Numbered from the stretch's first letter, positions 5,151 through 63,621 are shown. The stretch is DNA of 64,000 nt from Chthoniobacter sp. (GCA_036501065.1 DASYAY010000093.1:28191-92190); one strand, 5' to 3'. Made by a program: numbers and translations. The notes: generated by a model from the sequence alone, not told the origin.

Positions 5151-7424
5151 CTACCGTGCTCTGCGAGTCTCGCACCATTCCCGCCAGAGACGGCGATACG
5201 CCGCCTCGATGTTCCGGGCGAAACGCGGGGCGTCCATGAGCGGCGAGGCTTGCATGCGCGCACGCAGCGTGGATCGCAGCTCCTCCAGTCGATCCAAATC
5301 CATCGCCCACTTCGCCGCGATCTCGAGGTATTCGGCCGGGCTGGCTGCGGCGAATTCGGGCAGACCTACGGTGTGCAGCAAGCTCAGGCCGGTGCGGGAG
5401 ATGGGATGCTCCCCCGACAAACTCACGACGGGAACGCCCATCCACAAAGCGTGGCAGGTGGTGGTCATGCCATTGAACGGGAAGGAGTCGAGGGCGACGT
5501 CGATCTTCCCGAAAAGTTGCACATAGGCCGCCCATGGGCCGGGCGCGAAGAGTTCCAGCCGGACAGGATCGACGCCCTGAGCCGCAAATAAGCGGGAGGC
5601 GCGTTCGGCGGCCTGTCCGGGCGGACACACCATCAACAACCGCGAATGAGGAACCCGCCGCAGCAGTTCCGCCCAGCCGCGCAACGTCGCTTCCTTGATC
5701 TTGGCGAATTGGTTGAGCGAGCCGAAGGTGACCACGGAATGTTGCCTCGCCGGAAGCGTCCCGACTGCGGGGAAATCATCCACCGGCGCGTAGCAACACC
5801 AGCTCTCCGGCAAACGGATCACCCGCTCCGTGGACGCGGCATCGACTAAATCATCCGGCTCGATTTTGTCGTCCGACAACCGGTGACGAATCGTCTCCAC
5901 GCCAGAGCTGCCGGCGTGAGCCAGCCAGGAGATTTGCAACGGGGCCGGTTCTCGCGCAAACACGAGCAGGCGATTTTCCGCGGTGTGCATGGAAAGATCG
6001 ACGAGGATATCGATCCCATCCTCCCGGACGCGCGCCGCGACCTCTTCGTCCGACAGGGGGAAAATATCGTGCCAGACATCCGCGAGTTCCCGCAAACGGG
6101 CGGTGACCACGTCCGGTTGAGCGACGCTCGCATAGACGTGAACCTCGCATTGCGCTCGATCATGGGCCGCGAAGAGCGGCGCCAGGAAAAAGGAAACGGC
6201 GTGCGCATGAAGATCCGGAGAGATGTAACCCACGCGCAATCGTCGCGCGGGGTCCGGGACATTCCGCGGCGGAGTCGCGCCGGTCCGCAACGGCGCAGTA
6301 AAAAGACGATTCCATTCCGCCTGAGCGTCGTGAATGGCCATCGCATCGATCTCCGCGGAATGGTAGAGCGCGTAGATCAAGTTGCTGAGATAGACGGCGT
6401 TGCCCGGACTGAAATGGATGGCCTGCCGATACGCGGTGATCGCCTCCTCGATCCTTCCGCCATCCTTGAGCGCATTGGCCAGGTTGTTGTGCGCGGCGGA
6501 AAGATCCGGGCGAAAGCGAAGCACCTCCTGATAAGCGGCAATCGCCGCATCAATCTGCGCTTGATCTTTAAGTGCCAGGCCGAGGTTGTTGCGGGCCTCG
6601 ACGTAATCCGGCTTTACTTGCAGGGCCGTGCGAAAAGCCGCCTCCGCCGCCTGCGGCTGGCGGGACTTTCGCAGCGCCAAGCCCAGGTTGTTGTGCGCTT
6701 CCGCCAGATCCGGTTGGATGCGAAGAGCCGTTTCGAAGGAAGTAATGGCGGCGGCGGTCTGCCCAAGATCGTTGAGCGCGATCCCGAGATTGTTATGCGC
6801 TCGCGCGGAGTTCGGTTGGAGTTGCAACGCCCTTTGATAAGCCGCGAGGCTTTCTTCCTTCTGCCCGCGATCCTTCAACGCCGTGCCGAGATTGTCGTAA
6901 GCCTCGGGAAGGTTGGGCTCGATTTGCACGGCCGCGCGATAGGCCGTGATGGCTTCTTCGATTCGCCCGGATTCCTTCAACGCCACCCCGAGATTATTGT
7001 AGGCGCTGGCGAAATTCGGCCGGAAACGGAGCGCCGCAGCGAATGCGGCGATCGCTTCCTCGAGCCGGCCCAGGTCCCGCAAGGCATTGCCGAGATTGCT
7101 GTAAACATCCGCGGAATCCGGCTTGATTTCGAGCCCCCGGCGGCAGGCGGCGACGGCTTCCTCGTGCTTGCCTTCCGCCGTCCGGATGAGCGCGAGGTTG
7201 TTGTGGTAATCGAGCACCCCCGGGTTCAAGGCGATGGCGCGAGTGACCAGCGCGGCCGCGTCCGGAAGTTGATTCCGCTGAAACGCGATCATCCCCAGGA
7301 GATGCAGGCAGCCGTCGTGATTCGGAAAAACGGCGAGGACCTGGCGATAGATCGACTCCGCTTCGGCAAGACGTCCCGCGAGATGATGCTGGAGAGCGAG
7401 TTGGACGTGGTCGGCGACAGTCAT
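5151..7424 (-). CDS. TPR-containing GT41 glycosyltransferase (O-GlcNAc transferase/SPINDLY-like)
   Basis: About ten 34-aa TPRs (AxNNLGxAL...AIxAYxxALxxxP), then RVGYISPDLHAHAV, DILVDLSMHT, FGSLNQFAKI and DVALDSFPFNGMTTTCHALWMGVPVV. No signal peptide. Confidence 0.92.
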   Translation of the reverse strand: MTVADHVQLALQHHLAGRLAEAESIYRQVLAVFPNHDGCLHLLGMIAFQRNQLPDAAALVTRAIALNPGVLDYHNNLALIRTAEGKHEEAVAACRRGLEIKPDSADVYSNLGNALRDLGRLEEAIAAFAAALRFRPNFASAYNNLGVALKESGRIEEAITAYRAAVQIEPNLPEAYDNLGTALKDRGQKEESLAAYQRALQLQPNSARAHNNLGIALNDLGQTAAAITSFETALRIQPDLAEAHNNLGLALRKSRQPQAAEAAFRTALQVKPDYVEARNNLGLALKDQAQIDAAIAAYQEVLRFRPDLSAAHNNLANALKDGGRIEEAITAYRQAIHFSPGNAVYLSNLIYALYHSAEIDAMAIHDAQAEWNRLFTAPLRTGATPPRNVPDPARRLRVGYISPDLHAHAVSFFLAPLFAAHDRAQCEVHVYASVAQPDVVTARLRELADVWHDIFPLSDEEVAARVREDGIDILVDLSMHTAENRLLVFAREPAPLQISWLAHAGSSGVETIRHRLSDDKIEPDDLVDAASTERVIRLPESWCCYAPVDDFPAVGTLPARQHSVVTFGSLNQFAKIKEATLRGWAELLRRVPHSRLLMVCPPGQAAERASRLFAAQGVDPVRLELFAPGPWAAYVQLFGKIDVALDSFPFNGMTTTCHALWMGVPVVSLSGEHPISRTGLSLLHTVGLPEFAAASPAEYLEIAAKWAMDLDRLEELRSTLRARMQASPLMDAPRFARNIEAAYRRLWREWCETRRAR

Positions 7425-7521
7425 GGCAAGCGATAGGATACTCGATCTTCACCCGCAAATCTCCCTTTCGACGACGGGGAACGCCCCGGTGGTGATGGAG
7501 GCTGATGCATCCGGTTGTCGC

Positions 7522-9939
7522 TCAAATTTGGGATTCACACCAGCGCTGCCACATCCGCCGGTAGGCGGCTTCGATGTTCCGCGTGAAGCGTGGGGCGTCC
7601 ATCAAAATGGACGCCTCCATCCGCGGTCGCAAGGTCCGGCGGAGTTCCGCAAGACGCGGGAGATCACGCGCCAACTCGACGGAAATCCGCACATATTCAT
7701 CGGGTGAAGATGTGACCAGGTCCGGCATCCCCAGATTGGACATTTGACTCAGGCCGGCGCGGGAGACCGGATGTTCGCCGGCGAGACTGACCACGGGAAC
7801 GCCCATCCACAAAGCATCGAGACTGGTGCTGTGTCCGTTGTAGGGAAAGGTATCCAGCACCAGGTCGATTCCGTGATACCCGGTGAGATACTGGCTCCGC
7901 GGCGCCTTGGTCATAAACTCGACACGCTTTCGGTCGATGCCCCTCGCTTCGAGCGAAGCCAGGAACGCCTCGCGGCACTGTCCTCGCGGCGCCAGCAACC
8001 GGAGCCGCGACTCCGAGACCTCGGCCAGAATGCGCGTCCACAAGGCAATGAGCGGGCCGTTGATTTTGCAGAAGTTATTCAAGCAGCCGAAAGTGACGTA
8101 GCCGGTGCGCACAGCCGGCAACTCGTTGATTTCCAGGTGCTCTTCCAAAGGATCGAAACACCAGAAGCTGTCGAGGAGGCAGACCCGATCGGAATGCGGA
8201 ATGCGGAGTGCGGAATGCGGAATCGCCAGCCCTTCCAATTCCACATCCCGCACTCCGCGTTCCGCATTTCCCTCCAGCCACCGGTCGCTGATTCGATACT
8301 CGATTGCTTCGACGCCGGTGCCGCCCGGATATCCGGCAAAAGAAACCTGCACGGGCGCGGGCCGGCGGGCGAAAGCCAGGAGGCGATGGTGAGCGAGATG
8401 CTGGCTCAGGTCCACGAGCACATCCACGCCATCCTCCCGAATCTGCGCGGCAAGGTCCTCGTCGGAAAGGCGCGCAACGTCCCGCCATTGGTCCGCGCAT
8501 TTCTGAAATTCCGATGTCAGCGCGTCGGAATCGGGCAGCGAGGCGTAGCAGAAAATCTCGAATTGCGCGTGATCGTGGTGGCGAAACAGCGGCAGGAGAT
8601 TGCGGCCGATCACGTGCTGGCGAAAATCCGTGGAGACATAGCCGACTTTCAATCGGCGCGATGGCTCCCGCGGATTGCTGTGCCGCGGAATGGAGATGCC
8701 TAATGGCCGGGCGTGCCGTTCATTCCATTTCGCCAGCTCCTCGCGAATCTGCTTTGCCCCGAAGCCCGGATGAAAATGCAGAAGGTAAACGAGATGACTG
8801 TGATATGCGGCCTTGCCGGGGAGCAACGCCATCGCGCGGCGGTAGTGATCCAGCGCCGAATCCAATTCACCCCGGTCTTTCAGGGCCGTGCCCCAGTGGT
8901 CGAAGGCATCGGCGCTCTCCGGTCGAATTGCCAGCGCATTTTGGTAGGCGGCCACCGCTTCGTCCAATTGATCGTGCTCCTGAAGGAGATTGCCGAGATT
9001 CACCCAGGCCTCGATGAAATGCGGATTGCAGCGCAACGCGGCGCGGTAGGCGTTTGCCGCCGCTTCCCGCTGGCCTTGGCGCAGCCAGGCATTGCCCAAA
9101 TTGTAATGACTGTCGGCGTGGTCCGGTTGAATCTGGAGCGCGGCGCGGAAGGCCTCGATCGCAGCGTCGACCTCTCCTTCATCGAGCAACGCCTTGCCCA
9201 GATTCCCATGGGCCGCGGGATAGTCCGGCCGGAATTGGAGGGCCGTTTGATAAGCCGCCTTCGCCGCTGCAATCCGGTCCTGGCGATGCAGGGCGATGCC
9301 GAGATTGTAGTGAGCCTCGGCGAAATCGGGCCGCAGACGGATCGCTTCCTGATAAGCCGCAGCCGCCTCGGAAAAGGCCGCCTGATCGAGCAACGAATTT
9401 CCCAGCCGGTAATGGATTTCCGGCTCCAACGGCCGCAGCCGGAGCGCTTCCCGAAAGGCGGACGTGGCGGCAGCCAGACTCCCCTGCTCCAGCAAAAGCG
9501 TTCCGAGATTCTGCCACGCGTCGGGGTAATCGGGCTTCAGTTGAAGAGCCGTGCGATATTCGGCGACGGCCTCGGCAGCGAGTCCCTGTTTCTGGAAGAC
9601 GAGACCCAGATTGTAATGCGCTTCCGCATAGGCGGGCCGGAACGCGCAGGCCTGGCGAAAACTGGCTGCGGCCACATCGAGATTACCGAGGTTCATCCAG
9701 GCATTGCCCTGGTTGTTGTGATACGCGGCTTCGGCTGGCTGAATCGCCAGGGCCCGGCCAATCAAATCCACTGCCACCCGGTGCTGGCCGGACTGCAGCG
9801 CAACGACGCCGAGCAGGTGCAGCGCATCGGCATGATTCGGCTGGTGCGCCAGAATCTGCCGATAGATGGACTCCGCTTCCCGCAGTTTTCCCGCTTGGTG
9901 AAATTGGACCGCGAGGTCGAAGGATTGTTGGATGGTCAC
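7522..9939 (-). CDS. TPR-containing GT41 glycosyltransferase (O-GlcNAc transferase/SPINDLY-like)
   Basis: TPR array, then KVGYVSTDFRQHVIG, DVLVDLSQHL, FGCLNNFCKI and LDTFPYNGHSTSLDALWMGVPVV. GTG start lies 12 nt after the stop of the giant PEP-CTERM gene. Confidence 0.92.
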   Translation of the reverse strand: MTIQQSFDLAVQFHQAGKLREAESIYRQILAHQPNHADALHLLGVVALQSGQHRVAVDLIGRALAIQPAEAAYHNNQGNAWMNLGNLDVAAASFRQACAFRPAYAEAHYNLGLVFQKQGLAAEAVAEYRTALQLKPDYPDAWQNLGTLLLEQGSLAAATSAFREALRLRPLEPEIHYRLGNSLLDQAAFSEAAAAYQEAIRLRPDFAEAHYNLGIALHRQDRIAAAKAAYQTALQFRPDYPAAHGNLGKALLDEGEVDAAIEAFRAALQIQPDHADSHYNLGNAWLRQGQREAAANAYRAALRCNPHFIEAWVNLGNLLQEHDQLDEAVAAYQNALAIRPESADAFDHWGTALKDRGELDSALDHYRRAMALLPGKAAYHSHLVYLLHFHPGFGAKQIREELAKWNERHARPLGISIPRHSNPREPSRRLKVGYVSTDFRQHVIGRNLLPLFRHHDHAQFEIFCYASLPDSDALTSEFQKCADQWRDVARLSDEDLAAQIREDGVDVLVDLSQHLAHHRLLAFARRPAPVQVSFAGYPGGTGVEAIEYRISDRWLEGNAERGVRDVELEGLAIPHSALRIPHSDRVCLLDSFWCFDPLEEHLEINELPAVRTGYVTFGCLNNFCKINGPLIALWTRILAEVSESRLRLLAPRGQCREAFLASLEARGIDRKRVEFMTKAPRSQYLTGYHGIDLVLDTFPYNGHSTSLDALWMGVPVVSLAGEHPVSRAGLSQMSNLGMPDLVTSSPDEYVRISVELARDLPRLAELRRTLRPRMEASILMDAPRFTRNIEAAYRRMWQRWCESQI
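8190..8268. repeat. In-frame palindromic heptamer array inside GT41 gene
   Basis: CGGAATG CGGAATG CGGAGTG CGGAATG CGGAATC, a spacer, then CCACATC CCGCACT CCGCGTT CCGCATT (complementary arm). Encodes NAERGVRDV...IPHSALRIPHS. Confidence 0.85.
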
Positions 9940-9951
9940 AAAGGACCCGGA

Positions 9952-10044
9952 TCAGGTACGGGAACGGCGGCGGCGGAAGCGCTGGAGGCCGAGCGCCAGA
10001 CCGAGGCTGCCCGCGAGCATCGACAACGAGTTCGGTTCGGGAAT
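9952..10044 (-). other. PEP-CTERM (exosortase) sorting signal
   Basis: IPEPNSLSMLAGSLGLALGLQRFRRRRSRT-stop: Pro-Glu-Pro motif, transmembrane segment and basic tail. Confidence 0.92.
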
Positions 10045-13000
10045 CGCCATGATGGCGACATCGTTGCCGCTGCCGTGTGCAAACTGGCTGTCCACCCCAT
10101 TGTTGTAGCTGGCGGAATAACTGACCGCGAACTCCTGGCTGCCCACGTTGAAGGTGCTGTAACCGGGCAGATTCGGATCGCTGCCGGTGGCGTTGGCGAA
10201 GGTTCCGCTCGCCGTGGTATTCGCGCCGACGATGAGGTAGAAGGCATTGCCATCCAGGTTCTGCGTGCTGCCGGTGACCGTTCCCGAGAACGGGATGAAG
10301 CTATTGATGAGCGAAACGTCGAGGCTGACGTTGTTGAGATCGACGGTGCTGCCCGAGGCCACTAGCACTTGATCGTAACTGGAACCGGCGGTGGTGCCGC
10401 CGAGTTCGATCGAGAGGTGAGCGGGGCCGTTGCCCAGACCGGTATTCGTGCCCAGCGTGAGGTTTCCGCCGACGCTCAACTGGCCAACCGTGCTCGTGCC
10501 GCTGCCGCCGGTATCACCGGGCGCCACGGTGCCGCCGCCATTCGTGTCACTCACCGCCGTCAGGTTGCCGCTGATGTAGTTGGTCGTGCCGGTGATGGCC
10601 AGACCCGGGCCGCTGGCGAGAGTCGCACCGCTGGACACCGTGGTCGTGGCGAGCGTGCCGGCCAGCGAACCGCTGACAATCAGCGTGCCCTGCGTCACGC
10701 TCGTCGGACCGGTGTAGCTATTGACGCCGGAGAGCGTAGCCTTGCCGGTGCCCACCTTGGTAAGGCCGAGACCGTGGCCGCCATCACCGATGGCCGAAGA
10801 CACCGTGAGATTACCGGGACCGCCGATGCTGCTGGCGGTCTGCAACGTCACGGGACCGGCGTAGGTGGCCGGAGTCGAAACGTTGCTATTCGTCAGCGCA
10901 CCCACGCTGCTGCTGAACTGGCCATTCAGGTTCAACGGAACCGTCGCGGTCGGCATCAGGCCGTTGAGGTCGAGGGCCGCCCCGTTGCTCACGGTCACAC
11001 TGGCGGTATTGTTCGTGCCGTTGCCCAGGGCCCCGGCTGCGCCCAACTGCAGCGTGCCGCTGGCCACGCTGGTGGCGCCGGTGTAGGTGTTCGTGCCGCT
11101 GAGCAGGAGGGTGCCCGTGCCGGACATGGTGAGCGTCCCGGTGCCCGTCTCAATGGGAGCGGCAATGGTGACATTGCCGGTGCCGGCCACTTGCAAGTTG
11201 TCGCCCGAGCCGGTGATGCTCGGCGTGTTCGACGAGCCGTTGACGATCAACTGATTGCTGCCGGTGCTGTTGTTCGTCCACGTCTGGCTCGCGCCGAGAA
11301 CGACGTTGGCGTTGATCGTGTCGGTGCCGGCATTATTGTTCATCGTGATGCCGGAATTCACCAGCGTCAGGGTCTCGGTATTGTTCCCGCCATCACCGAT
11401 GGAGACGTCGCTCGTCGCGGCACTGGTAAAGGTGAGGCTGTTGATCAGGAAGGCCGCGCCCAAGGTGGTGCTGAGATTCTGCGCCACGGGATTGGTGGTG
11501 TAGAAGAAGACGTTCGTCGCGGCCACCGGCACCGACTGGGTGTCAATGTTGCTCGTGGCATCGGTGCGCCAGTTGGTGACACCACCGGCATTGTTGGTGT
11601 TCCAATTTCCATCCACGGCGCCCGCCCAGTAGGCATTGGCCGACGCCGCCACCGAGACTTCCAGCGCGGTCTGCGTAGCCGTATCCTGGCTGCCCGCAAG
11701 AGTCAGCGAATAAGTCTTGCCGCCCACGGTGATGGAGGTGGTTTCCAGGGTGAAGTTGTTTGTCGTGCCCGCGCCGGAGAAGCCGCCACCGGCTTCGATG
11801 AGCGGAATCACCCCGGTGGGAATGCTTGTGGCACCGGCAATGAGGCTCAGGTTGATCAGGTTGGCCCCGGTGCCCGCAGTCACGCTCGCATTCTTATTCA
11901 CGACGATTTCGTCGGCGCCGGCGTTGCCGATATCGAAGTCGAGATTGACCGGGCTTCCGGTCGTGCCGCTCACGGTGAAAGCGTTGCCCGAGAAGCTGGA
12001 ACCTTGGATGAGGTTGAAGGTGCCGATCGTCGTGCCGTTGACGAGGTTCAAGGTGGAACCCGCCCCGAGGGTGAGGCTGGCGCCGCCCGCCGCGACCAAG
12101 GCGCTCCCGGCGTTGACCACCGTGGTCGGCGCGCCGCTGGCCACGATCGGGGCAAAAGTTGCGCCTGCGCCGACGGAGATGGCGGTATTGCCGAGGGTGG
12201 CGAAGCTCGTGCTCGTGCTGAGGTTCTCGATCGTGAGGGTATTGCCGGCAACCGGGCTCAGGACGGTGGCCCCGCTGTAGGTATTGGCGCCGGACAGGAT
12301 CTGATCGCCCATGCCACCCTTGGTCAACGCCAGCGAACCCGCACCACCCGCACCCGCCTTGGTGTCGGTGAGGATGCCCGCAAAGGTCGCCGTGGAAGCG
12401 TTGTCGCCGCCGATGGTCAGGATGGTGGTCGTGCTGCTGGAATCATCGGTGACCATGCCCCCGGTCGTGGCGGTGTCCCCAAAGAGCGAGCCCACGCTGA
12501 GAGTCGCCTGGCCGTGGGTGTCGAAGACCGCACCCGCGCTGATTTGAATGGCATTGGTGCTGGCGAAGGCGAGGCCGCTGCCCACCTGGAGAACGCCACC
12601 GGCGACCACGACTTCTCCGTTGCCGAGGCTATCCGTGCCGGAAACGACGAGCACGCCCGGGCCGGCCTTGGTGAAGGCCGTGCCGGTCGCCGTGCTGCTG
12701 ATGTTACCGCTGATCACCGCGGTATCGAGCGGACTGCTCACGGTAATGGTCGGGCCGGCGGTCCCCAAGGTCATCGCCCCGGTCAGGGTCAAGGACGTCC
12801 CCGCAGCCGGCACGCCGCTGCTGACCAACGAATTGCCGATTGTGAAATTGCCATTGATCGTCGTGGAGTTGGCGATCGTCCGGGCAGTGCCGTCGGACTC
12901 GATCGTGCTGCCGCCATTGATCGCCAACGTTCCGGTGCCAACCGGGCCGCTGGTCACCGAACCGGTCGTACTCGCTCCGAAGATGATCGTGGACGCATTG

Positions 13001-16000
13001 AGCGTGACGCCACCGGTGAAGGTGCTCGCGCCGCTGAGGACCACGCCACCACCACCTGTGATGCTGAGATTGCCACCCGTGCTGGCGATGACGGCGGAGA
13101 GAATCAGGTCATCGGCCGAGAGACCGCTGACGGAGATGACGGGCGCGGTGTTACTGAGAGCCAGAGTGCCGCTGACCGTGGGCGTGCTGGTCAGGTCGTT
13201 GTTCTGCTCGGTGATCGCATTGGCGGCCGTAATGGTCAGCGTGCCACCGGAGGCGAGAACCGGGGTGACAGTGCCGCCGAGGCTGTTGTTGAAGGTGACG
13301 CTAGCCAGAGTGTTGACCCCGGTGAGGGTCACCGTGCCTCCGCCGTTAATCGTGAGGTTCGAGGTGGCCGCAATATTGCCCTGCGCCGACTCCGTCACGT
13401 TGTCGAGGTTGTTGACAACCAGATTGCCCGGGACTGCGACGATGGTCGAGCCGTTGGCACCCGTGGTATTGAGGGCCAACCCGCCGCTGACGTAAGTGGT
13501 GCCGGTGTAGGTATTGGCTCCCGTAAGCGTGAGGCCTCCGACGTCGACCACACTCACCGTGCCGCTGCCATTGTTGGCAATGACCGCGCTCACCGTCATA
13601 GCGCCGCTGTTATTCCGGATGAAGTCGAGTTCACCGCCGACGTTGAGCGCACCTGCGGTGAGTATGCCGTCCTGGATAGTAGTGGTGCCGATCGTGCCCA
13701 CGCTTGTGCGCATGATGCCACCGCTGACGACGTCCAGGACATTGGCGGCGCCGCCGATGTCCAGGGTCTGGACCACGGTCGCAGCGCCGCTGAATTGCAG
13801 CGAGTTCATGCTCATCGGCGAAGCGCCGGTAAGCGTGGTCGTGGTCGCGGCAGTGGTCGTATAATTTGCGGTGCCCGCCGGAGTGGCCACGAGGCTCGTG
13901 TAGCCGTTGGCGCCAAGTGCCGTCACCCCCGCGCTGTTGAACGTGCTGTTCGCCGTGCCTGTGCCCGAGGCCAATTGCGAGAGGGTGACGGTCGTGGTCG
14001 CGTTCGTCGAAGCCGTGATCGCGGTGATATAAGAACCCGCGGGGATGTTGCCGCCACTGACCATTTCACCGACCGTCAGATCCGCCGTGCTCGCGGTGTT
14101 CATCGTCACGATGTTGCTGTTGAAAGCGGTCGTCACGCTGAGGGTTTGCGCACCGCCGTAGGTCGCCCAGTTGTCACCCACAGTGTAAGCGCCACCGAGG
14201 ATGCCGCCGGTCAGGGCCGGTGCCGCACCGTTGAGATTGGTGATGAAGGTCTGCGGGTTGCCGGGGAGTGCCGAACCCAGCGTCTGGTTGGTGCCAGCGG
14301 TGAAGTTCACGACGGCGCCGGGCGTGCGATTGAGATTCCCGATCGTCAGGGTCGAGGTGTTGTTGGTGCCGGCGGGCGGGGCGATGTTGTTGATGACGTT
14401 GAAACCGGTGGCGAGGGTCACGCCGGTTCCACCGGCACCCACTGTCGTGGACGTCGAGGTGTAGTTGGCCCCGTCGATCTGGAGTTGGCCGCCGTTCAGA
14501 TTCACCGAAGCGGTCGTCGAAATCCGGTTGTTGTTATTGTTCGAGAGGCCGGTGTCGTTCAGGACCAACTCGCCGCCACCGTTGACGTTGATGGTGGAGG
14601 TATTCAGGCTGCCGCTGTCCTGGAGCACGATCACACTGCCCAGGATATTCGTCGTGCCGGAGTAGGTGTTCGCGCCGGTCAGCGTCAGCGTGGACGGTCC
14701 CTCCATGTAGAAGTTCAACCCGCCATCGATCGTCCCGCCGTACTCCGAAGAGGAGGACGTGGCGCTCACGAGGTTTGCCGCCGTGCTGCTGGTGATGCTC
14801 CCACCGGTCCCGCCGACGGTGTTGTTGTTTCGCAGCGCGCCGACGTACTGGTCGAAGCCATTGAGGTTGAGCGTACCACCGTTGACGGTCAGCGCCTGGA
14901 CGATCGGCACCGTGGCCGTAGGAATGACCGCGAGGGTATTGGCCGCGCCGCTGTTGAGAACCAGGGTGCCGCCGTTCACGGTGGTCGTGCCCGTGTAGTA
15001 GACGGGGTTATTGAGGTTCAACGTGCCGTTGTCCGCCTTGACCAAACCGCTGGCTGTGCCGGCGAGGAAGCCGTTGAGATTGAGCACGGACGAGCCGGTG
15101 ACGTGGAATTCGAACTGCACGGGTGTCGTGCCACCCGGGATCAATTCGCCGACGTTGAGCGTGTTGCTCGTGGCGGCGAGAATGCCGCCGGTGTTGACCG
15201 TAAGGACGTTGAGAGCGCCGGTATTCGTGTAGCCCTGGGCCACCGTGCCCTGAATCGCCTGGCCGCCGCCGATCGAATTGACGGCGTTGGCGGTGTCCAG
15301 CGTCAGGCTGTTCAGCGAAGTCGCAGCGCTGTAGGTCTGGGCCGAGCTGAAATTGCCGTAGTTCGTCGTGGAATTGTTGCCGGTCGCGAGCGTCGGCGCG
15401 AGTTCGGTGGTCGCGCTCAGCGCCCGAATGAACTTGGTGCTGCCGCTATCGACCGTGGCAAAACCGATGCCGGTGCCAGTGGACGAGGAGTCGACGATGA
15501 CATCGGCCCGGATGCCCATGGTCGTGGAGTTGTTCAGACCGGTGCCTTGCGTGACGCCAGCGATGCCCGCGGTGCCGGAGAAGGCCGCTCCGGTGACGAG
15601 ATTGGCGAAGCCGGCTCCGGTGGTCGTGCTGGCGCCTTGAATGAGCAGGCTGCCGCCACTGATCGCGGTTTCCGGGGTGAAGGTGCCGAGCGTAAGAGTG
15701 GTGCTGCCACCCAGGCCCGGGTTGAGCGTGATCTTGCCGCCGCCATTGGTCACGCCGAGAGTGCCGATGGTTTCGGATGCGTTGGTGGTCGCGAGATTGC
15801 TGCCATTGTAGACGAAGCTGCCACCCTGGATGGTCACGTTCTTACCGCTCAGGCGGTTGACGACGCTGTTCAAGCTGTTGTCGAGCGTGAGGACGCCGGT
15901 CGAATTGAGAGCGTAAGTGGCAAAGTTAAAGGTGCCCGCGCCGCTAATCGTGACTCCACCCTGGTTGACCGTGAAGGTGCCGGTCGGCGCCGTGCTGTTG

Positions 16001-53873: not shown

Positions 53874-54032
53874 AGGCGAATGCGAGCTCAGCTGCTACGG
53901 GGGGCAGGGACGGGAAAAGGGCAAACTTTGGGATGTTGTGGATATGATCCAGATGCGTCAAAAATATTTTCGGGATTAATCTGCCCTTACGTGATAGCGC
54001 GCCCTTGACATCCGGAAAATCTCGGCAATTTC

Positions 54033-54049
54033 GTAGTGTTATACACTAC
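54033..54049. promoter_or_regulatory. Palindrome in divergent promoter region, candidate transcription-factor site
   Basis: GTAGTGT-TAT-ACACTAC is a perfect 7-bp inverted repeat in the relatively AT-rich 569-bp gap. On the minus strand it overlaps a TATAAC -10-like hexamer. Confidence 0.45.
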
Positions 54050-56554: not shown

Positions 56555-56596
56555 CCTCCGACTTGCTCGATCTTCGCTCATAGCTGCCGATTGGCC

Positions 56597-58840
56597 ATGA
56601 CGGTCCCACAAGCTTTCGCCCTCGCCCTCCAACATCACCAGGCCGGCCGGTTGGCCGACGCGGAAGCCCTGTATCGCCAGATCCTCTCGGCGCAGCCAAA
56701 CCACGCCGATTCCTGGCATTTGCTGGGCGTGATCGCCCACGCCGCCGGCAAGCGCGATCTCGCCGTCGAATGGATTCGCCGGGCCATCTCCCTCGACCCG
56801 GACAACGCTACCGCTTACTACAACCTAGGCAACGCTCTCAAGGAACAGGGCCGAATGGACGAAGCCATCGCCGCGTTTGAACAAGCCCTCGCGCGCCAAC
56901 CGGCCAGCGCCGAAGCGCACAACAACCTCGGCAATTCCTTGCACGAGCTGGGCCGGTTCGATGAAGCCGTTCACCATTGCCGCCGCGCCATCGCCCTCAA
57001 ACCCGATTTCGTCCAGGCTCACTACAACCTCGGCAACGCCCTCAAGGATCGCGGAGATTTCAGCGAGGCCATCGCCGCCTACCGCCGGAGCATCGCCTTG
57101 GATTCCGCTTTTGCTTCCGGCCATAACAATCTCGGAATCGCCCTCGCGCAACAAAAGCAGCACGACGAAGCCATCGCCGCCTTTCGCGAAGCCATCCGGC
57201 TCGACCCCGCCGCGCACAAGGCGCACAACAATCTCGGCCTGGCCCTCGTCCAATTGCGCCGGATCGACGAAGCCATCGCCAGCTATCGTTCCGCGCTCGC
57301 TCTCACCCCCGATTACTTCGACGCCCACGTCAATCTCGGCCTCGCCTGCCGCGAGAAAGGACAATACGACAACGCCGTCGCCCACTTCCAGCGAGCCCTC
57401 GAACTCGACCCCAACTCCACCGAAGCTTCCAACAATCTCGGCAGCGTACTCAAGGACCAGGGTCTCGTCGTCGAAGCCATTGCCGCCCATCGGCGATCCT
57501 TGCAATCCGATCCGGACAACGCCCGCGTCCACAGCAACATCATTCTCGCGATGTATTTGGATCACGCCCAAAACAGCCGCACCATTGCCGAAGAGCAGCA
57601 GCGCTGGAATGCCCGTTTCGGACGCCCCGCGGAAAGACTGCCCCCTCCCAGCGACCGCGACCGCAATCCGGAACGGCGCTTGCGCATCGGCTACGTCTCT
57701 CCCGATTTCCGCGATCACGTCGTCGGTCGAAACCTCGTCCCGCTTTTTCGCGAACACGACAGCGAGCAATTCGAAATCCTCTGCTACTCGGAAGCCCAGC
57801 GTTCCGACAATTTGACCACCCTCTTCCGCCAAAGGGCTAGCCAATGGCGCAACACCGCAGACCTGTCGGACCAAGCCCTCGCTGAGGCGATCCGCCGCGA
57901 TCGCGTCGACATCCTCGTGGACCTGTCCCAGCACACCGCCGACAACCGCCTGGCCGCCTTCGCCTATCACCCCGCGCCCATCCAGGTCAGCTTCGCCGGT
58001 TATCCCGCCGCCACCGGTCTCGAAACCATCCGCTACCGCCTCAGCGACCCCTGGCTCGAATCGAAGATCGAAGATCGGAGTTCGGAGTTCGGGTGGCAAA
58101 AGCGCCCCGATCTCCCATCTCCGAACTCCCATCTCCCATCTCCCATCTCCCATCTCCGACCCGCGGAGCAGGTCCGCTTCCTCGACAGCTTCTGGTGTTA
58201 CGATCCGTGCGGCGTGCAGATCGACGTCAGCGAATTGCCGGCCACGAAAAACGGCTTCGTCACTTTCGGATGCTTGAACAGCTTTTGCAAAATCAACGAA
58301 CCCCAATTGAAACTCTGGGCAAAAGTGCTCGGCGTCATTCCGGATTCAAGACTCCTCGTCCTCAGCACCGAAGGCAGCCACCGCCTCCGGATGCTGGATA
58401 TCCTCCAACGCGAAGGAGTTCCCTCGCACCGCGTGGACTTCGCCACTCCACGTCCGCGCCGTCCCTATCTCGAGTTGTATCACCGTCTCGATCTCACCCT
58501 CGACACCTTCCCCTACAACGGCCACACCACCAGCCTCGATTCCCTTTGGATGGGCGTCCCTGTAGTCAGCCTCGCCGGCGAACTTTCTGTCTCGCGCGGC
58601 GGACTCAGCGTCCTCAGCAACCTCGGTCTCCCCGAACTCACCACCCACTCGGGTGACGATTTCGTCCAGGTCGCCACCGGACTCGCGCGCGACCTCCCAC
58701 GTCTCGGCTATCTCCGCTCCACTTTGCGCCGCCGGTTGGAGAAATCGGTCCTCATGGATGGCCCCCGTTTCGCCCGCCAAATCGAGGCCGCATACCGGAC
58801 CATGTGGCGCCAATGGTGCGCCGGAGCCACTCCCGAATGA
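56597..58840 (+). CDS. TPR-containing GT41 glycosyltransferase (O-GlcNAc transferase/SPINDLY-like)
   Basis: ATG gives MTVPQAFALALQHHQAG, as in the paralogs. TPRs, then RIGYVSPDFRDHVVG, FGCLNSFCKI and LDTFPYNGHTTSLDSLWMGVPVV. Confidence 0.92.
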   Translation: MTVPQAFALALQHHQAGRLADAEALYRQILSAQPNHADSWHLLGVIAHAAGKRDLAVEWIRRAISLDPDNATAYYNLGNALKEQGRMDEAIAAFEQALARQPASAEAHNNLGNSLHELGRFDEAVHHCRRAIALKPDFVQAHYNLGNALKDRGDFSEAIAAYRRSIALDSAFASGHNNLGIALAQQKQHDEAIAAFREAIRLDPAAHKAHNNLGLALVQLRRIDEAIASYRSALALTPDYFDAHVNLGLACREKGQYDNAVAHFQRALELDPNSTEASNNLGSVLKDQGLVVEAIAAHRRSLQSDPDNARVHSNIILAMYLDHAQNSRTIAEEQQRWNARFGRPAERLPPPSDRDRNPERRLRIGYVSPDFRDHVVGRNLVPLFREHDSEQFEILCYSEAQRSDNLTTLFRQRASQWRNTADLSDQALAEAIRRDRVDILVDLSQHTADNRLAAFAYHPAPIQVSFAGYPAATGLETIRYRLSDPWLESKIEDRSSEFGWQKRPDLPSPNSHLPSPISHLRPAEQVRFLDSFWCYDPCGVQIDVSELPATKNGFVTFGCLNSFCKINEPQLKLWAKVLGVIPDSRLLVLSTEGSHRLRMLDILQREGVPSHRVDFATPRPRRPYLELYHRLDLTLDTFPYNGHTTSLDSLWMGVPVVSLAGELSVSRGGLSVLSNLGLPELTTHSGDDFVQVATGLARDLPRLGYLRSTLRRRLEKSVLMDGPRFARQIEAAYRTMWRQWCAGATPE
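58061..58159. repeat. In-frame palindromic heptamer array inside GT41 gene
   Basis: Five TCG(A/G)AG(A/T)-type units, an 11-nt spacer, then seven CC(G/C)A(T/A)CT units including (CCCATCT)x4. Encodes SKIEDRSSEFG...PDLPSPNSHLPSPISHLR. Confidence 0.88.
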
Positions 58841-61014
58841 TGACCGTTCCACAAGCCTTCACCCTCGCCCTCCAGCATCACGAAGCCGGCCGGCTCGCCG
58901 AGGCCGAGTCGCTCTACCGGCAGATTCTTGCCGTCCAGCCCCACCATCCCGGCGCCTGGCATTTTCTCGGAGTGCTCGCCCATCAACGAGGCCAGCCCGA
59001 CCTTGCGCTCCAATGGATGTCCGGAGCGCTGACCCACGATCCCCACAACGCCGGCGCGCATTGCAATCTCGGCGCCGTCTATTTCGCGCTTGGCCGCCTG
59101 GACGAGGCCATGGCGAGCTATCGCCGGGCCATCGCGATCAAACCCGATTACGCCGATCCCCATTACAATCTCGGTCTGGCCCTGGCCAATTTGAAACGCT
59201 TCGAGGAAGCGACCGCCGCCTATCGCCGCGCCGTCGAAATCAATCCTGCCTATGCCGAGGCCCACAACAATCTCAGCAATGTCTTGATGGAACTGGGTCG
59301 GGACGAGGAAGCGATCGCTTCCGCCCAGCGCGCCCTCGCCCTCCGGCCCGACTATCCCGAACCCCATACCAATCTCGGCATCCTTCTGAAGAAACAAGGC
59401 CGGCTCGACGAAGCCCTCGCCGCGCATCGCCGCGCTCTCGCCCTCAAACCGGATTTCGCGGAAGCGCACACCAATCTCGGCGTCGCCCTCGCCGGGAAAG
59501 GGCAGCTCGACGACGCCATCGCCGCCTATCGCCGCGCCCTCGAGCTGAAACCGGAATATCCCGACGCCCTCTACGGGCTGGCCAATGCCTTGACGCAACT
59601 GGGCCGCCTGGATGAAGCGCTCGCGCCCTGTCGCCGCACGCTGGAACTCCAACCCGACCATTCCGAAGCACAAACCAACCTCGGTTATCTGCTCGGGGAA
59701 CGAGGCCAGTTCGAAGAAGCCGTGACCGCCTATCGTCGCGCCGTGGAACTCAAACCGGAGTTCGCGCCAGTCCACTGCAACCTCGCCCTCGCCCTGATCC
59801 AGGTGGGGAAAATCGACGAGGCCATCGCCGCTTGCCGTCGTGCTCTCGAACTCCAATCGGACCTCCCCGATGCCCACAACAACCTCGGCGTCGCTCTCGC
59901 CCGGGTTGAGCGTTTCGCCGAGGCCATCCACGCCTATCGCCGGTCCCTGGAACTCAATCCCGATTATGCGGACGCTCACAACAACCTCGCCATCGCCCTC
60001 ACCGAATTCGGTCAGTTCGAAGAAGCTGCCGCGGCGTACCGCCAAGCCCTCGCTCTCAAGCCGGAGAAAATCGAGGCCAGGATCAATTATGCCGGCCTCC
60101 TCCTGCTCCGCGGCGACTACCAGCAAGGCTGGCCGCTCTATGAATCCCGCGCTCGTGAAGCCGGCTTTGCCAGCCGCGCCTTTGCCCAGCCCCGGTGGAA
60201 CGGAGAACCACTGGCCGGACAACGCCTCCTCATCCACGCCGAGCAAGGCCTGGGCGACTCCATCCAATTCATTCGCTATGCCGAACTCATCGCCGGCCGC
60301 GGCGGTGAAGTAATCGTCGAATGTCAGCCAGCAATAGTTGAACTTTTCTCCACTGCCCAAGGCGTGCGCGAGGCCCTGCCCGCCGGCCAGCCGCTTTCTT
60401 CCTTTGACTGGCAACTGCCGATGCTCAGCCAGCCTCTGGTCTTTGGCACAACCTCCGGGACCATCCCCAACCACGTCCCCTATCTCTTCCCCGAGCCGGC
60501 TCGTTGCGAGGCCTGGCAAAAACGGCTGAATCCGGATCGAACACGCCAGCGCGTCGGGCTGGCCTGGGCCGGAAGTCCTCACCACCGCCGCAATCGCATC
60601 CGCAACGTCCCGCCGGAAGAACTCCTCCCCTTGTTCGGCCTGGAAAACATCGATTTTTACAGCCTCCAACTCGGCCCGGAAGGCGCCCAAATCCGCCAGC
60701 ATCCGGAAGGCGCCACCCTCATCGACCTGACCGAACACCTCCACGATTTTGCCGATACCGCCGCCCTCATGTCGCAACTGGACTTGATCATCTCCATCGA
60801 CTCCGCGGTCGCACATCTCGCCGGCGCCCTCGCCCGCCCAGTCTGGACCCTCCTACCCTTTGTCCCCGATTGGCGCTGGGGCCTGCTCGCCGAATCCACC
60901 CCGTGGTATCCCACGATGCGCCTCTTCCGCCAGCCCTCCATCGGCGATTGGGATTCAGTCATCCAACGCATCTTCCACGACCTCCGCGAGAGCCACCTCT
61001 ATAGCGTCTCCTGA
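58840..61014 (+). CDS. TPR-containing glycosyltransferase with GT9-like (heptosyltransferase-like) GT-B C-terminal domain
   Basis: Long TPR array, then WNGEPLAGQRLLIHAEQGLGDSIQFIRY, VGLAWAGS and LDLIISIDSAVAHLAGALARPVWTLLPFVPDWRW...PWYPTMRLFRQ. Start (58837 or 58840) overlaps the upstream stop (ATGATG). Confidence 0.88.
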   Translation: MTVPQAFTLALQHHEAGRLAEAESLYRQILAVQPHHPGAWHFLGVLAHQRGQPDLALQWMSGALTHDPHNAGAHCNLGAVYFALGRLDEAMASYRRAIAIKPDYADPHYNLGLALANLKRFEEATAAYRRAVEINPAYAEAHNNLSNVLMELGRDEEAIASAQRALALRPDYPEPHTNLGILLKKQGRLDEALAAHRRALALKPDFAEAHTNLGVALAGKGQLDDAIAAYRRALELKPEYPDALYGLANALTQLGRLDEALAPCRRTLELQPDHSEAQTNLGYLLGERGQFEEAVTAYRRAVELKPEFAPVHCNLALALIQVGKIDEAIAACRRALELQSDLPDAHNNLGVALARVERFAEAIHAYRRSLELNPDYADAHNNLAIALTEFGQFEEAAAAYRQALALKPEKIEARINYAGLLLLRGDYQQGWPLYESRAREAGFASRAFAQPRWNGEPLAGQRLLIHAEQGLGDSIQFIRYAELIAGRGGEVIVECQPAIVELFSTAQGVREALPAGQPLSSFDWQLPMLSQPLVFGTTSGTIPNHVPYLFPEPARCEAWQKRLNPDRTRQRVGLAWAGSPHHRRNRIRNVPPEELLPLFGLENIDFYSLQLGPEGAQIRQHPEGATLIDLTEHLHDFADTAALMSQLDLIISIDSAVAHLAGALARPVWTLLPFVPDWRWGLLAESTPWYPTMRLFRQPSIGDWDSVIQRIFHDLRESHLYSVS

Positions 61015-61065
61015 ATGTAATCTCCGGTTCGGCCGAAGAACTCCGCGAAGCGATCGAAAAAAGCC

Positions 61066-61106
61066 TGTCATTCTGAGTGCGGAGCGGAGCGAAGCCGAAG
61101 AACCTC
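61066..61106. repeat. Single arm of an intergenic GTCATTCTGAG-type REP-like element
   Basis: TGTCATTCTGAGTGCGGAGCGGAGCGAAGCCGAAGAACCTC resembles the widespread GTCATTCTGAGCG..AGCGAAGAATCT repeat (recalled similarity). No partner arm is visible. Confidence 0.4.
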
Positions 61107-61325
61107 CAATATCTGCGGGGCAGCGGTGCGGAGCCGTAGGTGATCAAAGCGAAAATTACTTTCGAGAGATACTCTAACTAATCTCGGATACCGCAATCCA
61201 CCACCCCCCTCTCGCCAAAACCGTCCCACCCAAAGCCTCACCCACAAGCCAACACCCCCTGTCAGCGCTACTCCCCCCAATCACCTCGCCGCCACCATTC
61301 AAAACGCCGCCCACGAATCGACCCA

Positions 61326-61349
61326 TTGGATGTTGGGTGTTGGATGTTG
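61326..61349. repeat. Short intergenic heptamer tandem repeat
   Basis: TTGGATG TTGGGTG TTGGATG TTG, about 75 nt upstream of the ATG at 61423. Confidence 0.55.
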
Positions 61350-61422
61350 CCCTCCCCCATTCCCCCAAGGAAGATTGCCTTTCCCCCCAAGGCGGTGTCT
61401 TGTTCCGCCTCCCAAATCGACG

Positions 61423-63621
61423 ATGCCCCCGGTCACGGTCCCCCAAGCCTTTGCCTTAGCGATCCAGCATCACCAGGCTGGCCGGCTCGCCGAAGCCGAG
61501 GCGGTCTACCGCCAGATCCTCGGCGTGGATCCCAATCACGCCGACGCCTGGCACATGCTCGGCGTCGTTGCCAACCAGGTCGGGCAACGGAAGCTTTCCG
61601 CGGAATGGATCCGCAAGTCGATCGCGCTGAACCCGAATAATTCCGAAGCCCATTATAACCTCGGCAACACCTTCAAGGACGATGGCCACGTCGACGAAGC
61701 CATCGCCGCTTTTCAACGCGCGCTCGCTCTGCGCCCCGCTTATGCCGAGGCCGCGAACAACCTCGGCGTCGTCCTCTCCCTGCGCGGACGCTTCGCCGAA
61801 GCCATCGCCATCTGCCGCCGCGCCGTGGAGCTGAGTCCCAACCTCGTCGCGGCGCACTACAATCTCGGCAACGCCCTCAAGGATCACGGCGCCCTGGAAG
61901 AAGCCGTTGCCGCCTACCGTCGCGGGCTCGAACTCGACCCAAACTTGCCCCAGGCCCACAACAACCTCGGCGTCGCCCTCGATCGATTGGGCCAATACGA
62001 CCAGTCCATCGCCGTATTCCATCGCGCCCTCCAGCTTCAACCCGGTTTTGCCGAGGCTGAAAACAATCTCGGCGCCGCCCTTTACCGCAAAGGCCAGCTC
62101 GACGATGCCGAAGCCGCCTGTCACCGGGCGCTCCAACTCAAACCGAATTTCCCGGACGCTCATAACAACCTCGGAAACATCTTTTGCGCCCGCGGCCAGG
62201 TCCACGAAGCGGTCAACGAATTCCGCTGCGCCATCGAAGGAGCGACTGCGCCCTCCGGAGTGCACAGCAGTTTGCTCTTCACCCTTCATTACGTCCCGGA
62301 TCTGGATGAAAAAACCATCGCCGCGGAGCACGAACGCTGGAATCAGCTTTTCTCCGCGATTCGCCGCGCGCCGTCGCCGCCCTATTCCAACGACCGCGAT
62401 CCGTCGCGCCGCCTGCGGATCGGCTACATTTCGCCGGATTTTCTGGATCACGTCGTCGGCCACAATCTCGTCCCCTTGTTTCGGCACCACGATCGGGAGA
62501 ACTTCGAAATCTTCTGTTACACGTCGGCCGCGAAATCGGATCATCTCACCGAACGCTTCCGCCAGTGGTCCGATCACTGGCGCAGCACCGTCGGCCTTTC
62601 GGACGAAGCCCTCGCCGGAATGATTCGCCAGGACGCCATCGATATTCTCGTCGATCTCGCCCAGCACACCTCCGGCAATCGCCTCGCCGCCTTCGCCCAC
62701 AAACCGGCTCCCGTGCAGGTCAGCTTTGCCGGCTACCCCGCCAGCACCGGCCTTCAGGAAATCGCCTACCGCATCAGCGACCGCTGGCTGGAAGGCTCCG
62801 CCTCGGAGTTCGAAGATGGGAAATCGGAGATCGGGCGCACGTTTCCACCCGAACTCCGAACTCCGAACTCCGATCCCCGATCTCCGATCCCCGATCTCCC
62901 ATCTCCCATCTCCCATCTCCGACCTGCGGAGCAGGTCTCCGAAATCGACAGCTTTTGGTGCTACGACCCCGATGGACTGGAGATCGCCGTGAACGAATCG
63001 CCGGCCGCGAAAACCGGCGGCCGGATCGTCTTTGGCAGCCTCAACAGCTTCGGCAAAATCAATGCCTCTGTCCTCCAGCTTTGGGCGCAAATCCTCGGCC
63101 AGGTGAAAGATTCGCGCCTCCTCTTGTTGAGCCGCCACGGCAGTCACCAGAAGCGCGTGCGGGATTTCTTCGAACAGGAAGGAATCGCCGGCGACCGCGT
63201 GGAGTTTGTCGATCGATGCCCGCGTGACGAATATCTCCGGACTTTCCAGCGCATCGACATCGGCCTCGACCCGTTTCCCTATGGCGGCCACACCTCCAGC
63301 CTCGACGCTCTCTGGATGGGCGTGCCGGTGATCAGCCTCTGCGGGCACATGCCGGTCTCGCGCAGCGGCCTGAGCATCCTCCACAATCTGGGTCTGCCCG
63401 AGCTCGTCGCCCATTCCAAAAGCCAGTACCTCCAGATCGCTACAGACCTCGCCCACGATCTCCCGCGCCTCGCCGATCTCCGCGCCAACTTGCGCACCCG
63501 CATGGAAGCATCCGTGCTCATGGACGCCCCCCATTTTACCCGCCAAATCGAAATTGCCTATCGCCAGATGTGGCGCCACTGGCTCCAGGGCGAAAAATCA
63601 ATCCCGGCAAATTCCCCCTGA
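61423..63621 (+). CDS. TPR-containing GT41 glycosyltransferase (O-GlcNAc transferase/SPINDLY-like)
   Basis: ATG gives MPPVTVPQAFALAIQHHQAG. TPRs, then RIGYISPDFLDHVVG, FGSLNSFGKI and LDPFPYGGHTSSLDALWMGVPVI. Confidence 0.92.
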   Translation: MPPVTVPQAFALAIQHHQAGRLAEAEAVYRQILGVDPNHADAWHMLGVVANQVGQRKLSAEWIRKSIALNPNNSEAHYNLGNTFKDDGHVDEAIAAFQRALALRPAYAEAANNLGVVLSLRGRFAEAIAICRRAVELSPNLVAAHYNLGNALKDHGALEEAVAAYRRGLELDPNLPQAHNNLGVALDRLGQYDQSIAVFHRALQLQPGFAEAENNLGAALYRKGQLDDAEAACHRALQLKPNFPDAHNNLGNIFCARGQVHEAVNEFRCAIEGATAPSGVHSSLLFTLHYVPDLDEKTIAAEHERWNQLFSAIRRAPSPPYSNDRDPSRRLRIGYISPDFLDHVVGHNLVPLFRHHDRENFEIFCYTSAAKSDHLTERFRQWSDHWRSTVGLSDEALAGMIRQDAIDILVDLAQHTSGNRLAAFAHKPAPVQVSFAGYPASTGLQEIAYRISDRWLEGSASEFEDGKSEIGRTFPPELRTPNSDPRSPIPDLPSPISHLRPAEQVSEIDSFWCYDPDGLEIAVNESPAAKTGGRIVFGSLNSFGKINASVLQLWAQILGQVKDSRLLLLSRHGSHQKRVRDFFEQEGIAGDRVEFVDRCPRDEYLRTFQRIDIGLDPFPYGGHTSSLDALWMGVPVISLCGHMPVSRSGLSILHNLGLPELVAHSKSQYLQIATDLAHDLPRLADLRANLRTRMEASVLMDAPHFTRQIEIAYRQMWRHWLQGEKSIPANSP
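62803..62925. repeat. In-frame palindromic heptamer array inside GT41 gene
   Basis: Five left-arm units (TCGGAGT TCGAAGA TGGGAAA TCGGAGA TCGGGCG), an 11-nt spacer, then ten right-arm units (CCGAACT x3, CCGATCC/CCGATCT x4, CCCATCT x3). Confidence 0.88.

What the first reader, a model, noticed from the sequence alone, without database searches (positions are those of the whole stretch)
5151..63621. Candidate dedicated glycosylation system: giant PEP-CTERM adhesin enclosed by six TPR-glycosyltransferases
Seen: a ~44-kb Ser/Thr/Asn-rich surface-protein gene is followed after only 12 nt by a GT41 gene and then a second one. Divergently upstream sit three more GT41 genes and one GT9-like gene. None of the six has a signal peptide, and no unrelated gene interrupts the 58-kb block. 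Established: GT41 includes OGT (O-GlcNAc), SPINDLY (O-fucose) and HMW1C/NGT, which glycosylates the co-encoded HMW1 adhesin in the cytoplasm. Serine-rich repeat adhesins of streptococci likewise have flanking glycosyltransferases. Inference: this is a cytoplasmic, pre-export, multi-enzyme pathway in which TPR-bearing OGT/SPY-like enzymes decorate an exosortase-targeted giant protein. Protein targets of bacterial TPR-GT41 enzymes are mostly unknown, and I know of no described system with this make-up.
Basis: partly seen in the sequence, partly recalled or inferred. Interest (0 to 1): 0.92.

Follow-up and report, generated by a model that had tools for sequence, protein, structure and literature searches.

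The report
Giant surface protein with glycosyltransferase partner
A soil bacterium encodes a 14,640-residue surface protein (broken by a one-base deletion in this assembly, intact in other samples) between six enzyme genes of protein-glycosylating families; one of them repeatedly sits head-to-head with such giants in related species and likely adds sugars to them before export, while the other five look like local additions from a large genome-wide pool.

Summary
The block is real: five TPR-GT41 genes, one TPR-GT9-like gene and a 43.9-kb Ser/Thr/Asn-rich beta-helix gene with a PEP-CTERM-like tail. A dedicated six-enzyme pathway is not supported. The genome has 26 GT41 and 12 GT9-like TPR genes, and 19 GT41 lie away from giants, including a seven-gene array. 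The same locus in relatives has two, one or no GT41. What holds up is a two-gene module: one SPINDLY-like subfamily (gene 54443) sits head-to-head with giant genes at three chromosomal contexts, at two of them across a conserved 54-nt element. A second subfamily precedes giants in another genus. Across the family 3 of 40 giants adjoin a GT41 (about 0.1 expected; two loci, one of them this one), and 7 of 19 giant-bearing genomes show no GT41. Close homologues in another family follow flagellin tandems. Best reading: accessory cytoplasmic O-glycosylation of a giant before export, akin to cyanobacterial Ogt/PilA and flagellin islands. No biochemical evidence. New variant of a known kind.

The parts
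9952..53873 (-). Giant PATR beta-helix surface-protein gene, 14,640 aa when intact; extended N-terminal signal-like segment with a conserved RLSSWLVLST motif; C-terminal PEP-CTERM-like tail
   Evidence: ORFs; PATR over cut-off at both ends; model of a 219-aa piece pLDDT 82 matches beta-helices such as the IcsA passenger, Z 12.2, rmsd 2.8, 163 aligned; N-terminal alignment
23300..23310 (-). 1-bp deletion splitting the giant into 10,217-aa and 4,502-aa ORFs in this assembly; not in a simple repeat
   Evidence: sequence; table 4 (extra base in X3 and X4, absent in X1)
9952..10044 (-). PEP-CTERM-like sorting signal (IPEP, hydrophobic helix, Arg cluster)
   Evidence: borderline scores; exosortase PF09721 has 3 matches over cut-off in the genome
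53957..54010 (-). Conserved 54-nt intergenic element (inverted GTCAA/TTGAC arms around a near-palindromic TYACGTAA), about 85-140 nt upstream of the giant start; likely regulatory
   Evidence: 4 matches in 151 genomes, all between a clade-A GT41 and a giant (pattern derived from those four); also in L181, L185, L202, L207
54443..56554 (+). TPR-GT41 of 'clade A', head-to-head with the giant; SPINDLY-like donor signature (R/A/Y at SPY K689/A731/Y744, plus H495, K665, E752)
   Evidence: (E 7e-88 to SPY, 1e-48 to OGT, 7e-5 to NGT)
56597..58840 (+). TPR-GT41 of the genome's expanded subfamily (L/L/Y signature)
58840..61014 (+). TPR plus GT9-like glycosyltransferase; start overlaps the previous stop; member of a very large uncharacterised family
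   Evidence: 6,827 relatives at E<=1e-30 among 8,000 scored; no solved relative by sequence
61423..63621 (+). TPR-GT41 of the expanded subfamily (probable start 61423, not 61330)
7522..9939 (-). TPR-GT41, 12 nt after the giant stop; basal member of the expanded subfamily
5151..7424 (-). Divergent TPR-GT41 (V/L/F signature; His in place of SPY E752)
2379..5011 (-). Flank: heavy-metal P-type ATPase and a small CsoR-like gene (CsoR name recalled from the sequence, not from a call); marks orthology with G061:C49 and G069:C46
63698..64000 (+). Flank: start of a planctomycete-cytochrome-c-domain gene; marks orthology of the locus

Best explanation
The core is a two-gene module in which the SPINDLY-like TPR-GT41 at 54443, encoded head-to-head with the giant gene, likely adds single sugars to Ser/Thr of the unfolded giant in the cytoplasm before export, and the other five TPR-glycosyltransferases are likely later local additions from a pool of 38 such genes. 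Inferred steps: (1) shared control through the 54-nt element; (2) the TPR arm threads the nascent chain and the GT-B domain transfers a sugar from a GDP-sugar, possibly GDP-fucose; (3) Sec export via the extended signal; (4) exosortase processing of the PEP-CTERM-like tail; (5) display as a long glycosylated beta-helix rod. The added enzymes have other active-site signatures and would vary the glycan coat. Shown: gene anatomy, family membership, retained catalytic residues, recurrence of the pairing, fold type of one fragment. In the population that gave this assembly the giant is frameshifted, so it would be anchorless or not made.
For: Clade A occurs twice in the genome, both times head-to-head with a giant (C93, C115). 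In a subclade of six (FastTree support 0.95), five are head-to-head with a giant start. The pairing holds at the orthologous locus in G061 and G069 and at another flank in L190. A second subfamily lies directly upstream of 8,297- and 9,963-aa giants beside clpB in genus g37. 3 of 40 family giants adjoin a GT41 against about 0.095 expected. His495 and Lys665 equivalents are kept in all five GT41 (roles from PMC9715652 and PMC10027727). gmd is present over cut-off. Of the 3 strongest homologues among 400 phylum genomes, 2 lie directly after 3-4 flagellin genes. Precedent: Ogt two genes from pilA is needed for PilA glycosylation; GT41 in enterobacterial flagellin islands.
Against: 19 of 26 GT41 and 10 of 12 GT9-like genes in the genome have no large STN-rich neighbour. 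37 of 40 family giants have no adjacent GT, and 7 of 19 giant-bearing genomes have no GT41 at E<=1e-12, three of them 95-98% complete. L207 and L213 show the same locus without a GT41, and L207 keeps the 54-nt element. 5 of 8 clade-A hits in the unbiased search have no giant beside them. Of the three adjacent cases, one is this locus's orthologue and two are one locus. C115 shares the element, so it is not independent of C93. GT-flanked and unflanked giants have the same composition. Two clade-A copies beside a giant (G061:C49, L202) have Gly at the K689 position, and all lack SPY T747/T748, so the donor is uncertain. No expression or glycoprotein data.
Confidence: 0.55

Rival explanations
1. 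One reading: all six enzymes form one dedicated, ordered pathway for this protein.
For: Uninterrupted 58-kb block; 12-nt and overlapping junctions; at least three GT41 active-site signatures plus a GT9-like enzyme.
Against: Only one of the six is conserved at the orthologous locus. Four of the other five have their closest paralogue elsewhere in the genome, at 45-55% identity. A larger array on C53 has no giant.
Confidence: 0.15
2. No functional link: TPR-GT genes are an expanded family that inserts at many sites, variable surface loci among them, and the enzymes modify cytoplasmic proteins as plant SPY does; the clade-A pairing is inherited linkage.
For: 38 genes in about 22 scattered clusters; presence beside giants is patchy even at one locus; many giants occur without GT41.
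Against: Pairing at four distinct flanks with two subfamilies; element and enzyme found together before a second giant; homologues beside flagellins, an autotransporter and an FHA-like protein.
Confidence: 0.2
3. The enzymes serve surface proteins as a shared pool (pilins, autotransporters, about 33 large STN-rich proteins), or act mainly as TPR chaperones, with no locus-specific pairing.
For: 33 STN-rich genes of 800 aa or more; two pilin-like genes 3 kb from a three-GT41 array in G061:C44; a GT9-like gene between two PEP-CTERM-like proteins on C38.
Against: Clade A's position is far more specific than a shared pool needs; catalytic residues are kept, which argues against a pure chaperone.
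Confidence: 0.1

Closest known systems
Synechococcus elongatus Ogt (Synpcc7942_0051) and PilA (PMC9306852, passages read)
   Same: Bacterial TPR-GT41 encoded next to a surface-protein gene and needed for its glycosylation
   Different: One enzyme, small pilin, GlcNAc signal; here a 14,640-aa beta-helix with a PEP-CTERM-like tail and up to six enzymes
Flagellin glycosylation islands with GT41/COG3914 (PMC4875605, passages read)
   Same: SPINDLY-family GT41 beside an exported Ser/Thr-rich substrate; variable number of GTs; the same setting is seen for close homologues in G542, G333 and G002
   Different: Substrate is flagellin; islands carry sugar-synthesis and methyltransferase genes, which this block lacks; no flagellin was found in this genome
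Arabidopsis SPINDLY (PDB 7Y4I, 8DTF; PMC9715652, PMC10027727)
   Same: Best solved match for the 54443 catalytic domain (E 7e-88); H495, K665, A731, Y744, E752 kept, Arg for K689
   Different: SPY modifies nucleocytoplasmic proteins; 54443 lacks S496, H728, T747, T748; the other four GT41 lack the K689/A731 pair
Haemophilus HMW1C/NGT with HMW1 (PMC10507012, passages read)
   Same: GT41 modifying a co-encoded beta-helical surface protein (the giant's fragment also aligns to the HMW1 secretion domain, Z 9.1)
   Different: NGT has an AAD domain, not TPRs, and acts on Asn; these enzymes match NGT only at E about 1e-4, and the giant shows no sequon excess (350 vs 336)
Serine-rich repeat proteins with SecA2/Y2 clusters (PMC6973325, passages read)
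   Same: Large Ser-rich surface protein with two to ten GT genes and a C-terminal sorting signal
   Different: Gram-positive, GtfA/B priming, accessory Sec genes in the cluster; none of these is in this block

Membership tests
GT41 (five genes) | PF13844 over the gathering score, N-terminal TPRs | tested here: met
   147-188 bits against 25
GT41 (five genes) | Catalytic His (SPY H495) and Lys (SPY K665) | tested here: met
   positions read off the alignment
SPY-like O-fucosyltransferase clan, gene 54443 | K689/A731/Y744 signature (PMC10027727) | tested here: inconclusive
   R/A/Y, a conservative change; T747 and T748 not kept
SPY-like O-fucosyltransferase clan, other four GT41 | K689/A731/Y744 signature | tested here: not met
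   L/L/Y, L/T/Y, L/G/Y and V/L/F; mixed, like the 'intermediate' group
SPY-like O-fucosyltransferase clan | GDP-fucose transfer to Ser/Thr | not testable with these tools
   needs an assay; gmd is present
HMW1C/NGT | AAD domain without TPR; NGT model score | tested here: not met
   TPRs present; NF049992 21.9 bits against 1000
HMW1C/NGT | Sequon-directed substrate | tested here: inconclusive
   350 N-X-S/T against 336 expected, z 0.9; abundant but not enriched
GT9 heptosyltransferases (58840 gene) | PF01075 score and equivalog models | tested here: inconclusive
   26.5 bits against 22 over 35 residues; far below the WaaC/WaaF/RfaQ model cut-offs
PEP-CTERM/exosortase target | PEP motif, hydrophobic helix and basic cluster at the C-terminus | tested here: inconclusive
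   pattern visible; scores just under the cut-offs
PEP-CTERM/exosortase target | Exosortase in the genome | tested here: met
   3 PF09721 matches over cut-off
PATR beta-helix proteins | PATR repeats and beta-helix fold | tested here: met
   (one 219-aa fragment folded)
SRRP/accessory Sec cluster | secA2, secY2, asp and gtfAB beside the adhesin | tested here: not met
   no such genes in the block; the second SecA-like gene is on C70
Adhesin | Binding to a surface or cell | not testable with these tools
   no binding domain identified; only two 1,500-aa ends were scanned against Pfam and NCBIfam

The most novel reading that the evidence does not exclude
A SPINDLY-like bacterial protein O-fucosyltransferase and a shared bidirectional control element form a portable cassette that has been placed in front of different giant (8,000-15,000 aa) exosortase-type beta-helix genes, and extra TPR-GTs with other donor pockets are recruited to diversify a cytoplasmically built glycan coat. 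This would give a bacterial SPY-like enzyme a defined substrate and show pre-export glycosylation of a PEP-CTERM protein.
Probability: 0.3. Interest if true: 0.8.

Novelty: new variant of a known kind. Interest (0 to 1): 0.55.

Why it matters
PMC10027727 notes that very few SPY-like proteins have been characterised. This locus names one enzyme (54443) and one candidate substrate, with natural presence/absence variants of the locus as controls. PEP-CTERM proteins are thought to be heavily glycosylated (PMC4960237); a cytoplasmic route would add to that picture. A soluble GDP-sugar protein O-glycosyltransferase from a bacterium could also be a glycoengineering tool.

Tried and rejected
Two genes rather than one: rejected, since other samples restore a single frame. 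Assembly artefact: unlikely, since an independent assembly of the possible source run shows the same deletion. Repeat-driven phase variation: no simple repeat at the site. N-glycosylation signature: no sequon excess. Sigma-70 consensus scan: no promoter in either intergenic region. Foreign origin: GC and GC3 (0.72-0.83 against a median of 0.76) give no sign. Single-sequence fold failed (pLDDT 45); Foldseek gave no match at E<=0.001. No solved relative of the GT9-like domain by sequence. No RNA holder listed. No complex prediction was sent (enzyme-substrate pair). 20 GT41 regions of relatives and 25 loci of more distant homologues showed no adjacent giant of this type, but many contigs end near the genes. 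The careful tree did not finish; quick IQ-TREE and FastTree trees were used. Paper searches for GT41 plus PEP-CTERM and for giant genes plus glycosyltransferase plus TPR returned nothing; searches returned no description of this pairing in their listings. The library lacks most subscription papers, and no supplements were read (the SPY signature table in the PMC10027727 supplement could bear on clade placement).

Full report
Observation. The window is G000:C93:28191-92190 of a 6.69-Mb, 87.6%-complete genome held in soil metagenome runs. Genes beside a named Chthoniobacteraceae homologue include several at 68-81% identity to its genes, so Verrucomicrobiota, probably that family, is an inference. 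Five genes carry TPRs plus PF13844 well over cut-off. The sixth has TPRs plus a weak GT9 match. A dicodon gene caller of my own finds nothing else between 5151 and 63621. Probable starts are 56597, 58840 and 61423.

The giant. It is two ORFs here, 10,217 and 4,502 aa. Of four runs laid on 19000-28000, X3 and X4 have one extra base at 23,306, which gives one 14,640-aa frame. X1, flagged as the possible source, has the deletion in a 47.9-kb contig at depth 28, and X2 has no cover at the site. So the gene is real and the sequenced population likely carries a frameshift allele that loses the anchor. Only 4500-12000 and 19000-28000 were laid. The protein is 35% Ser+Thr+Asn, 16% Gly, with no Cys and few charged residues. 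PATR repeats score over cut-off in both 1,500-aa ends scanned. A 219-aa piece folded with a 20-row alignment (pLDDT 82) aligns to beta-helices: IcsA passenger Z 12.2, rmsd 2.8, 163 aligned; TibA, HMW1 and EtpA at Z 8.7-10.2. A shared fold shows no function, and adhesion is untested. The tail reads IPEP, hydrophobic helix, Arg cluster, but scores just under both cut-offs. Three exosortase matches exist.

The enzymes. The 54443 catalytic domain is closest to Arabidopsis SPY (E 7e-88), then a bacterial TPR protein (5djs, 2e-82), XcOGT and human OGT (about 1e-48) and NGT (7e-5). PMC10027727 (section 7 and passages read) gives K689/A731/Y744 as the SPY signature and describes a mixed prokaryotic group; PMC9715652 (passages) shows that H495 and K665 are needed. 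All five GT41 keep H495 and K665. Gene 54443 reads R/A/Y with E752 but lacks T747 and T748; the other four read L or V at 689. Different donors are therefore likely, and a GDP-sugar is plausible only for 54443. gmd is present. Sequons are not enriched (350 vs 336), which together with the weak NGT match favours O-linkage.

Test in the genome. There are 26 GT41 and 12 GT9-like TPR genes. Seven GT41 are in runs that touch a giant: five here and two on C115, again head-to-head. Nineteen are not, including five GT41 plus two GT9-like genes in a row on C53. Of the other three giants of this type, C115 (10,385 aa) is flanked, C48 (17,001 aa) is 18 kb from a GT41, and C28 starts 1.5 kb from a contig end. 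One of three by chance is p about 0.03, but C115 is not independent (see below). The two GT41 facing the giants' starts belong to one separate clade ('clade A'). Four of the other five window enzymes have their best paralogue elsewhere in the genome, at 45-55%; 61423's best is 56597.

Test in relatives. The locus, marked by the cytochrome-domain gene on one side and the metal ATPase on the other, holds two GT41 and an 8,216-aa giant in G061 and one clade-A GT41 with a frameshift-ridden giant in G069; neither has downstream GTs. A metagenome scan with the giants' N-terminus gave 45 loci (L191 and L193 look alike; four have under 1 kb upstream). Two have clade A head-to-head (L202, same locus type as G061; L190, another flank), L187 has a GT41 one gene away, and L207 and L213 show this locus with no GT41. 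In 151 family genomes, the 150 listed rows (39 weaker rows unlisted) gave 40 open frames of at least 4,000 aa in 19 other genomes. Three adjoin a GT41 (G061:C49, G157:C167, G158:C44) against about 0.095 expected. G157 and G158 are one locus beside clpB, with a different subfamily in tandem orientation. G069:C46 (adjacent) and G061:C44 (20 kb away) fell under the length threshold and were not counted. Seven of the 19 genomes, with 13 giants, show no GT41 at E<=1e-12. Searching from the enzyme side, 8 clade-A hits were found and 3 face a giant, this gene included. Within clade A a six-member subclade has five such cases, two of them found through the giant search. Kin are not independent, so the honest count is four chromosomal contexts.

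A conserved element. A 54-nt element at 53957-54010 occurs twice in the genome, at C93 and C115, and four times in 151 genomes, always between clade A and a giant (the pattern was built from these four). C115's giant shares downstream neighbours with G061:C44, which has neither element nor adjacent GT41. This suggests that enzyme and element were copied together in front of a second giant. L207 keeps the element without the enzyme and L190 has the enzyme without the element, so the element may simply control the giant. No sigma-70 match was found.

Wider pattern. Among 400 phylum genomes no clade-A member was found; of three weaker hits, two in complete genomes lie directly after tandem flagellin genes and the third is at a contig end. 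Arrays also lie 6 kb from flagellin in G002, beside a PATR autotransporter in G061 and near a DUF3739 protein in G137. This genome shows no flagellin. In print, S. elongatus Ogt, two genes from pilA, is needed for PilA glycosylation (PMC9306852, passages), GT41 genes occur in 14 of 42 enterobacterial flagellin island types (PMC4875605, passages), and SRRP clusters carry two to ten GTs (PMC6973325, passages). A preprint on Omnitrophota giants (10.64898/2026.06.07.730766, passages) has no mention of tetratricopeptide or PEP-CTERM in its main text. PMC4683255 was seen as a listing only. That HMW1C acts in the cytoplasm before export is recalled and only partly seen. Earlier AI notes report similar pairings in other genomes and in phages; these are untested leads.

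Verdict. The feature is real and the association is above chance, but it is accessory and rests on one enzyme. The six-gene enclosure is a local build-up in a genome rich in such genes. It works most likely like Ogt/PilA, flagellin islands and HMW1C/HMW1, without being a member of the NGT or SRRP systems. I found no description of the pairing with giant PEP-CTERM-like proteins in the searches run. New variant of a known kind; interest 0.55.

Noticed in passing
G000:C70:15406-32476 (L233): A second, shorter SecA-like gene (630 aa, 471 bits, below cut-off) lies with an exporter-like cluster around a 4,389-aa STN-rich protein; possibly a dedicated export system for that protein.
   Followed up: partly
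G000:C53:90454-104880 (L054): Seven TPR-glycosyltransferase genes in a row (five GT41, two GT9-like) with no obvious substrate gene beside them.
   Followed up: partly
G000:C38:16452-52645 (L053): A TPR-GT9-like gene sits between PEP-CTERM-like proteins of 2,769 and 3,508 aa, with a third of 5,020 aa next to them.
   Followed up: partly
G000:C48:3570-54575 and C28:1510-26259: Two more giants of the same family, 17,001 and about 8,250 aa. Different parts of the giants match different paralogues across species, which hints at shuffling of segments.
   Followed up: partly
window 53730-53873: The giants share an extended N-terminal signal-like segment with an almost invariant RLSSW-VLST motif, specific enough to retrieve 45 metagenome loci; may mark a special export or processing route.
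   Followed up: partly
L229:12348-20000 and L231:11788-20000: In two complete genomes of another family a SPY-like TPR-GT41 follows fliD-like and three to four flagellin genes.
   Followed up: partly
window 7522-9939, 56597-58840 and 61423-63621: Three GT41 carry 15-35-aa low-complexity Pro/Ser-rich inserts at the same point between the two catalytic lobes.
   Followed up: no
window 207-5011: Flanking genes: a TPR protein with an RMD1-3 match, a 421-aa unassigned gene, a heavy-metal P-type ATPase and a small CsoR-like gene.
   Followed up: no
G000:C115:33799-48600: Polyketide-synthase-like genes (judged from the sequence, not scanned) lie just beyond the two GT41 genes of the second module.
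   Followed up: no
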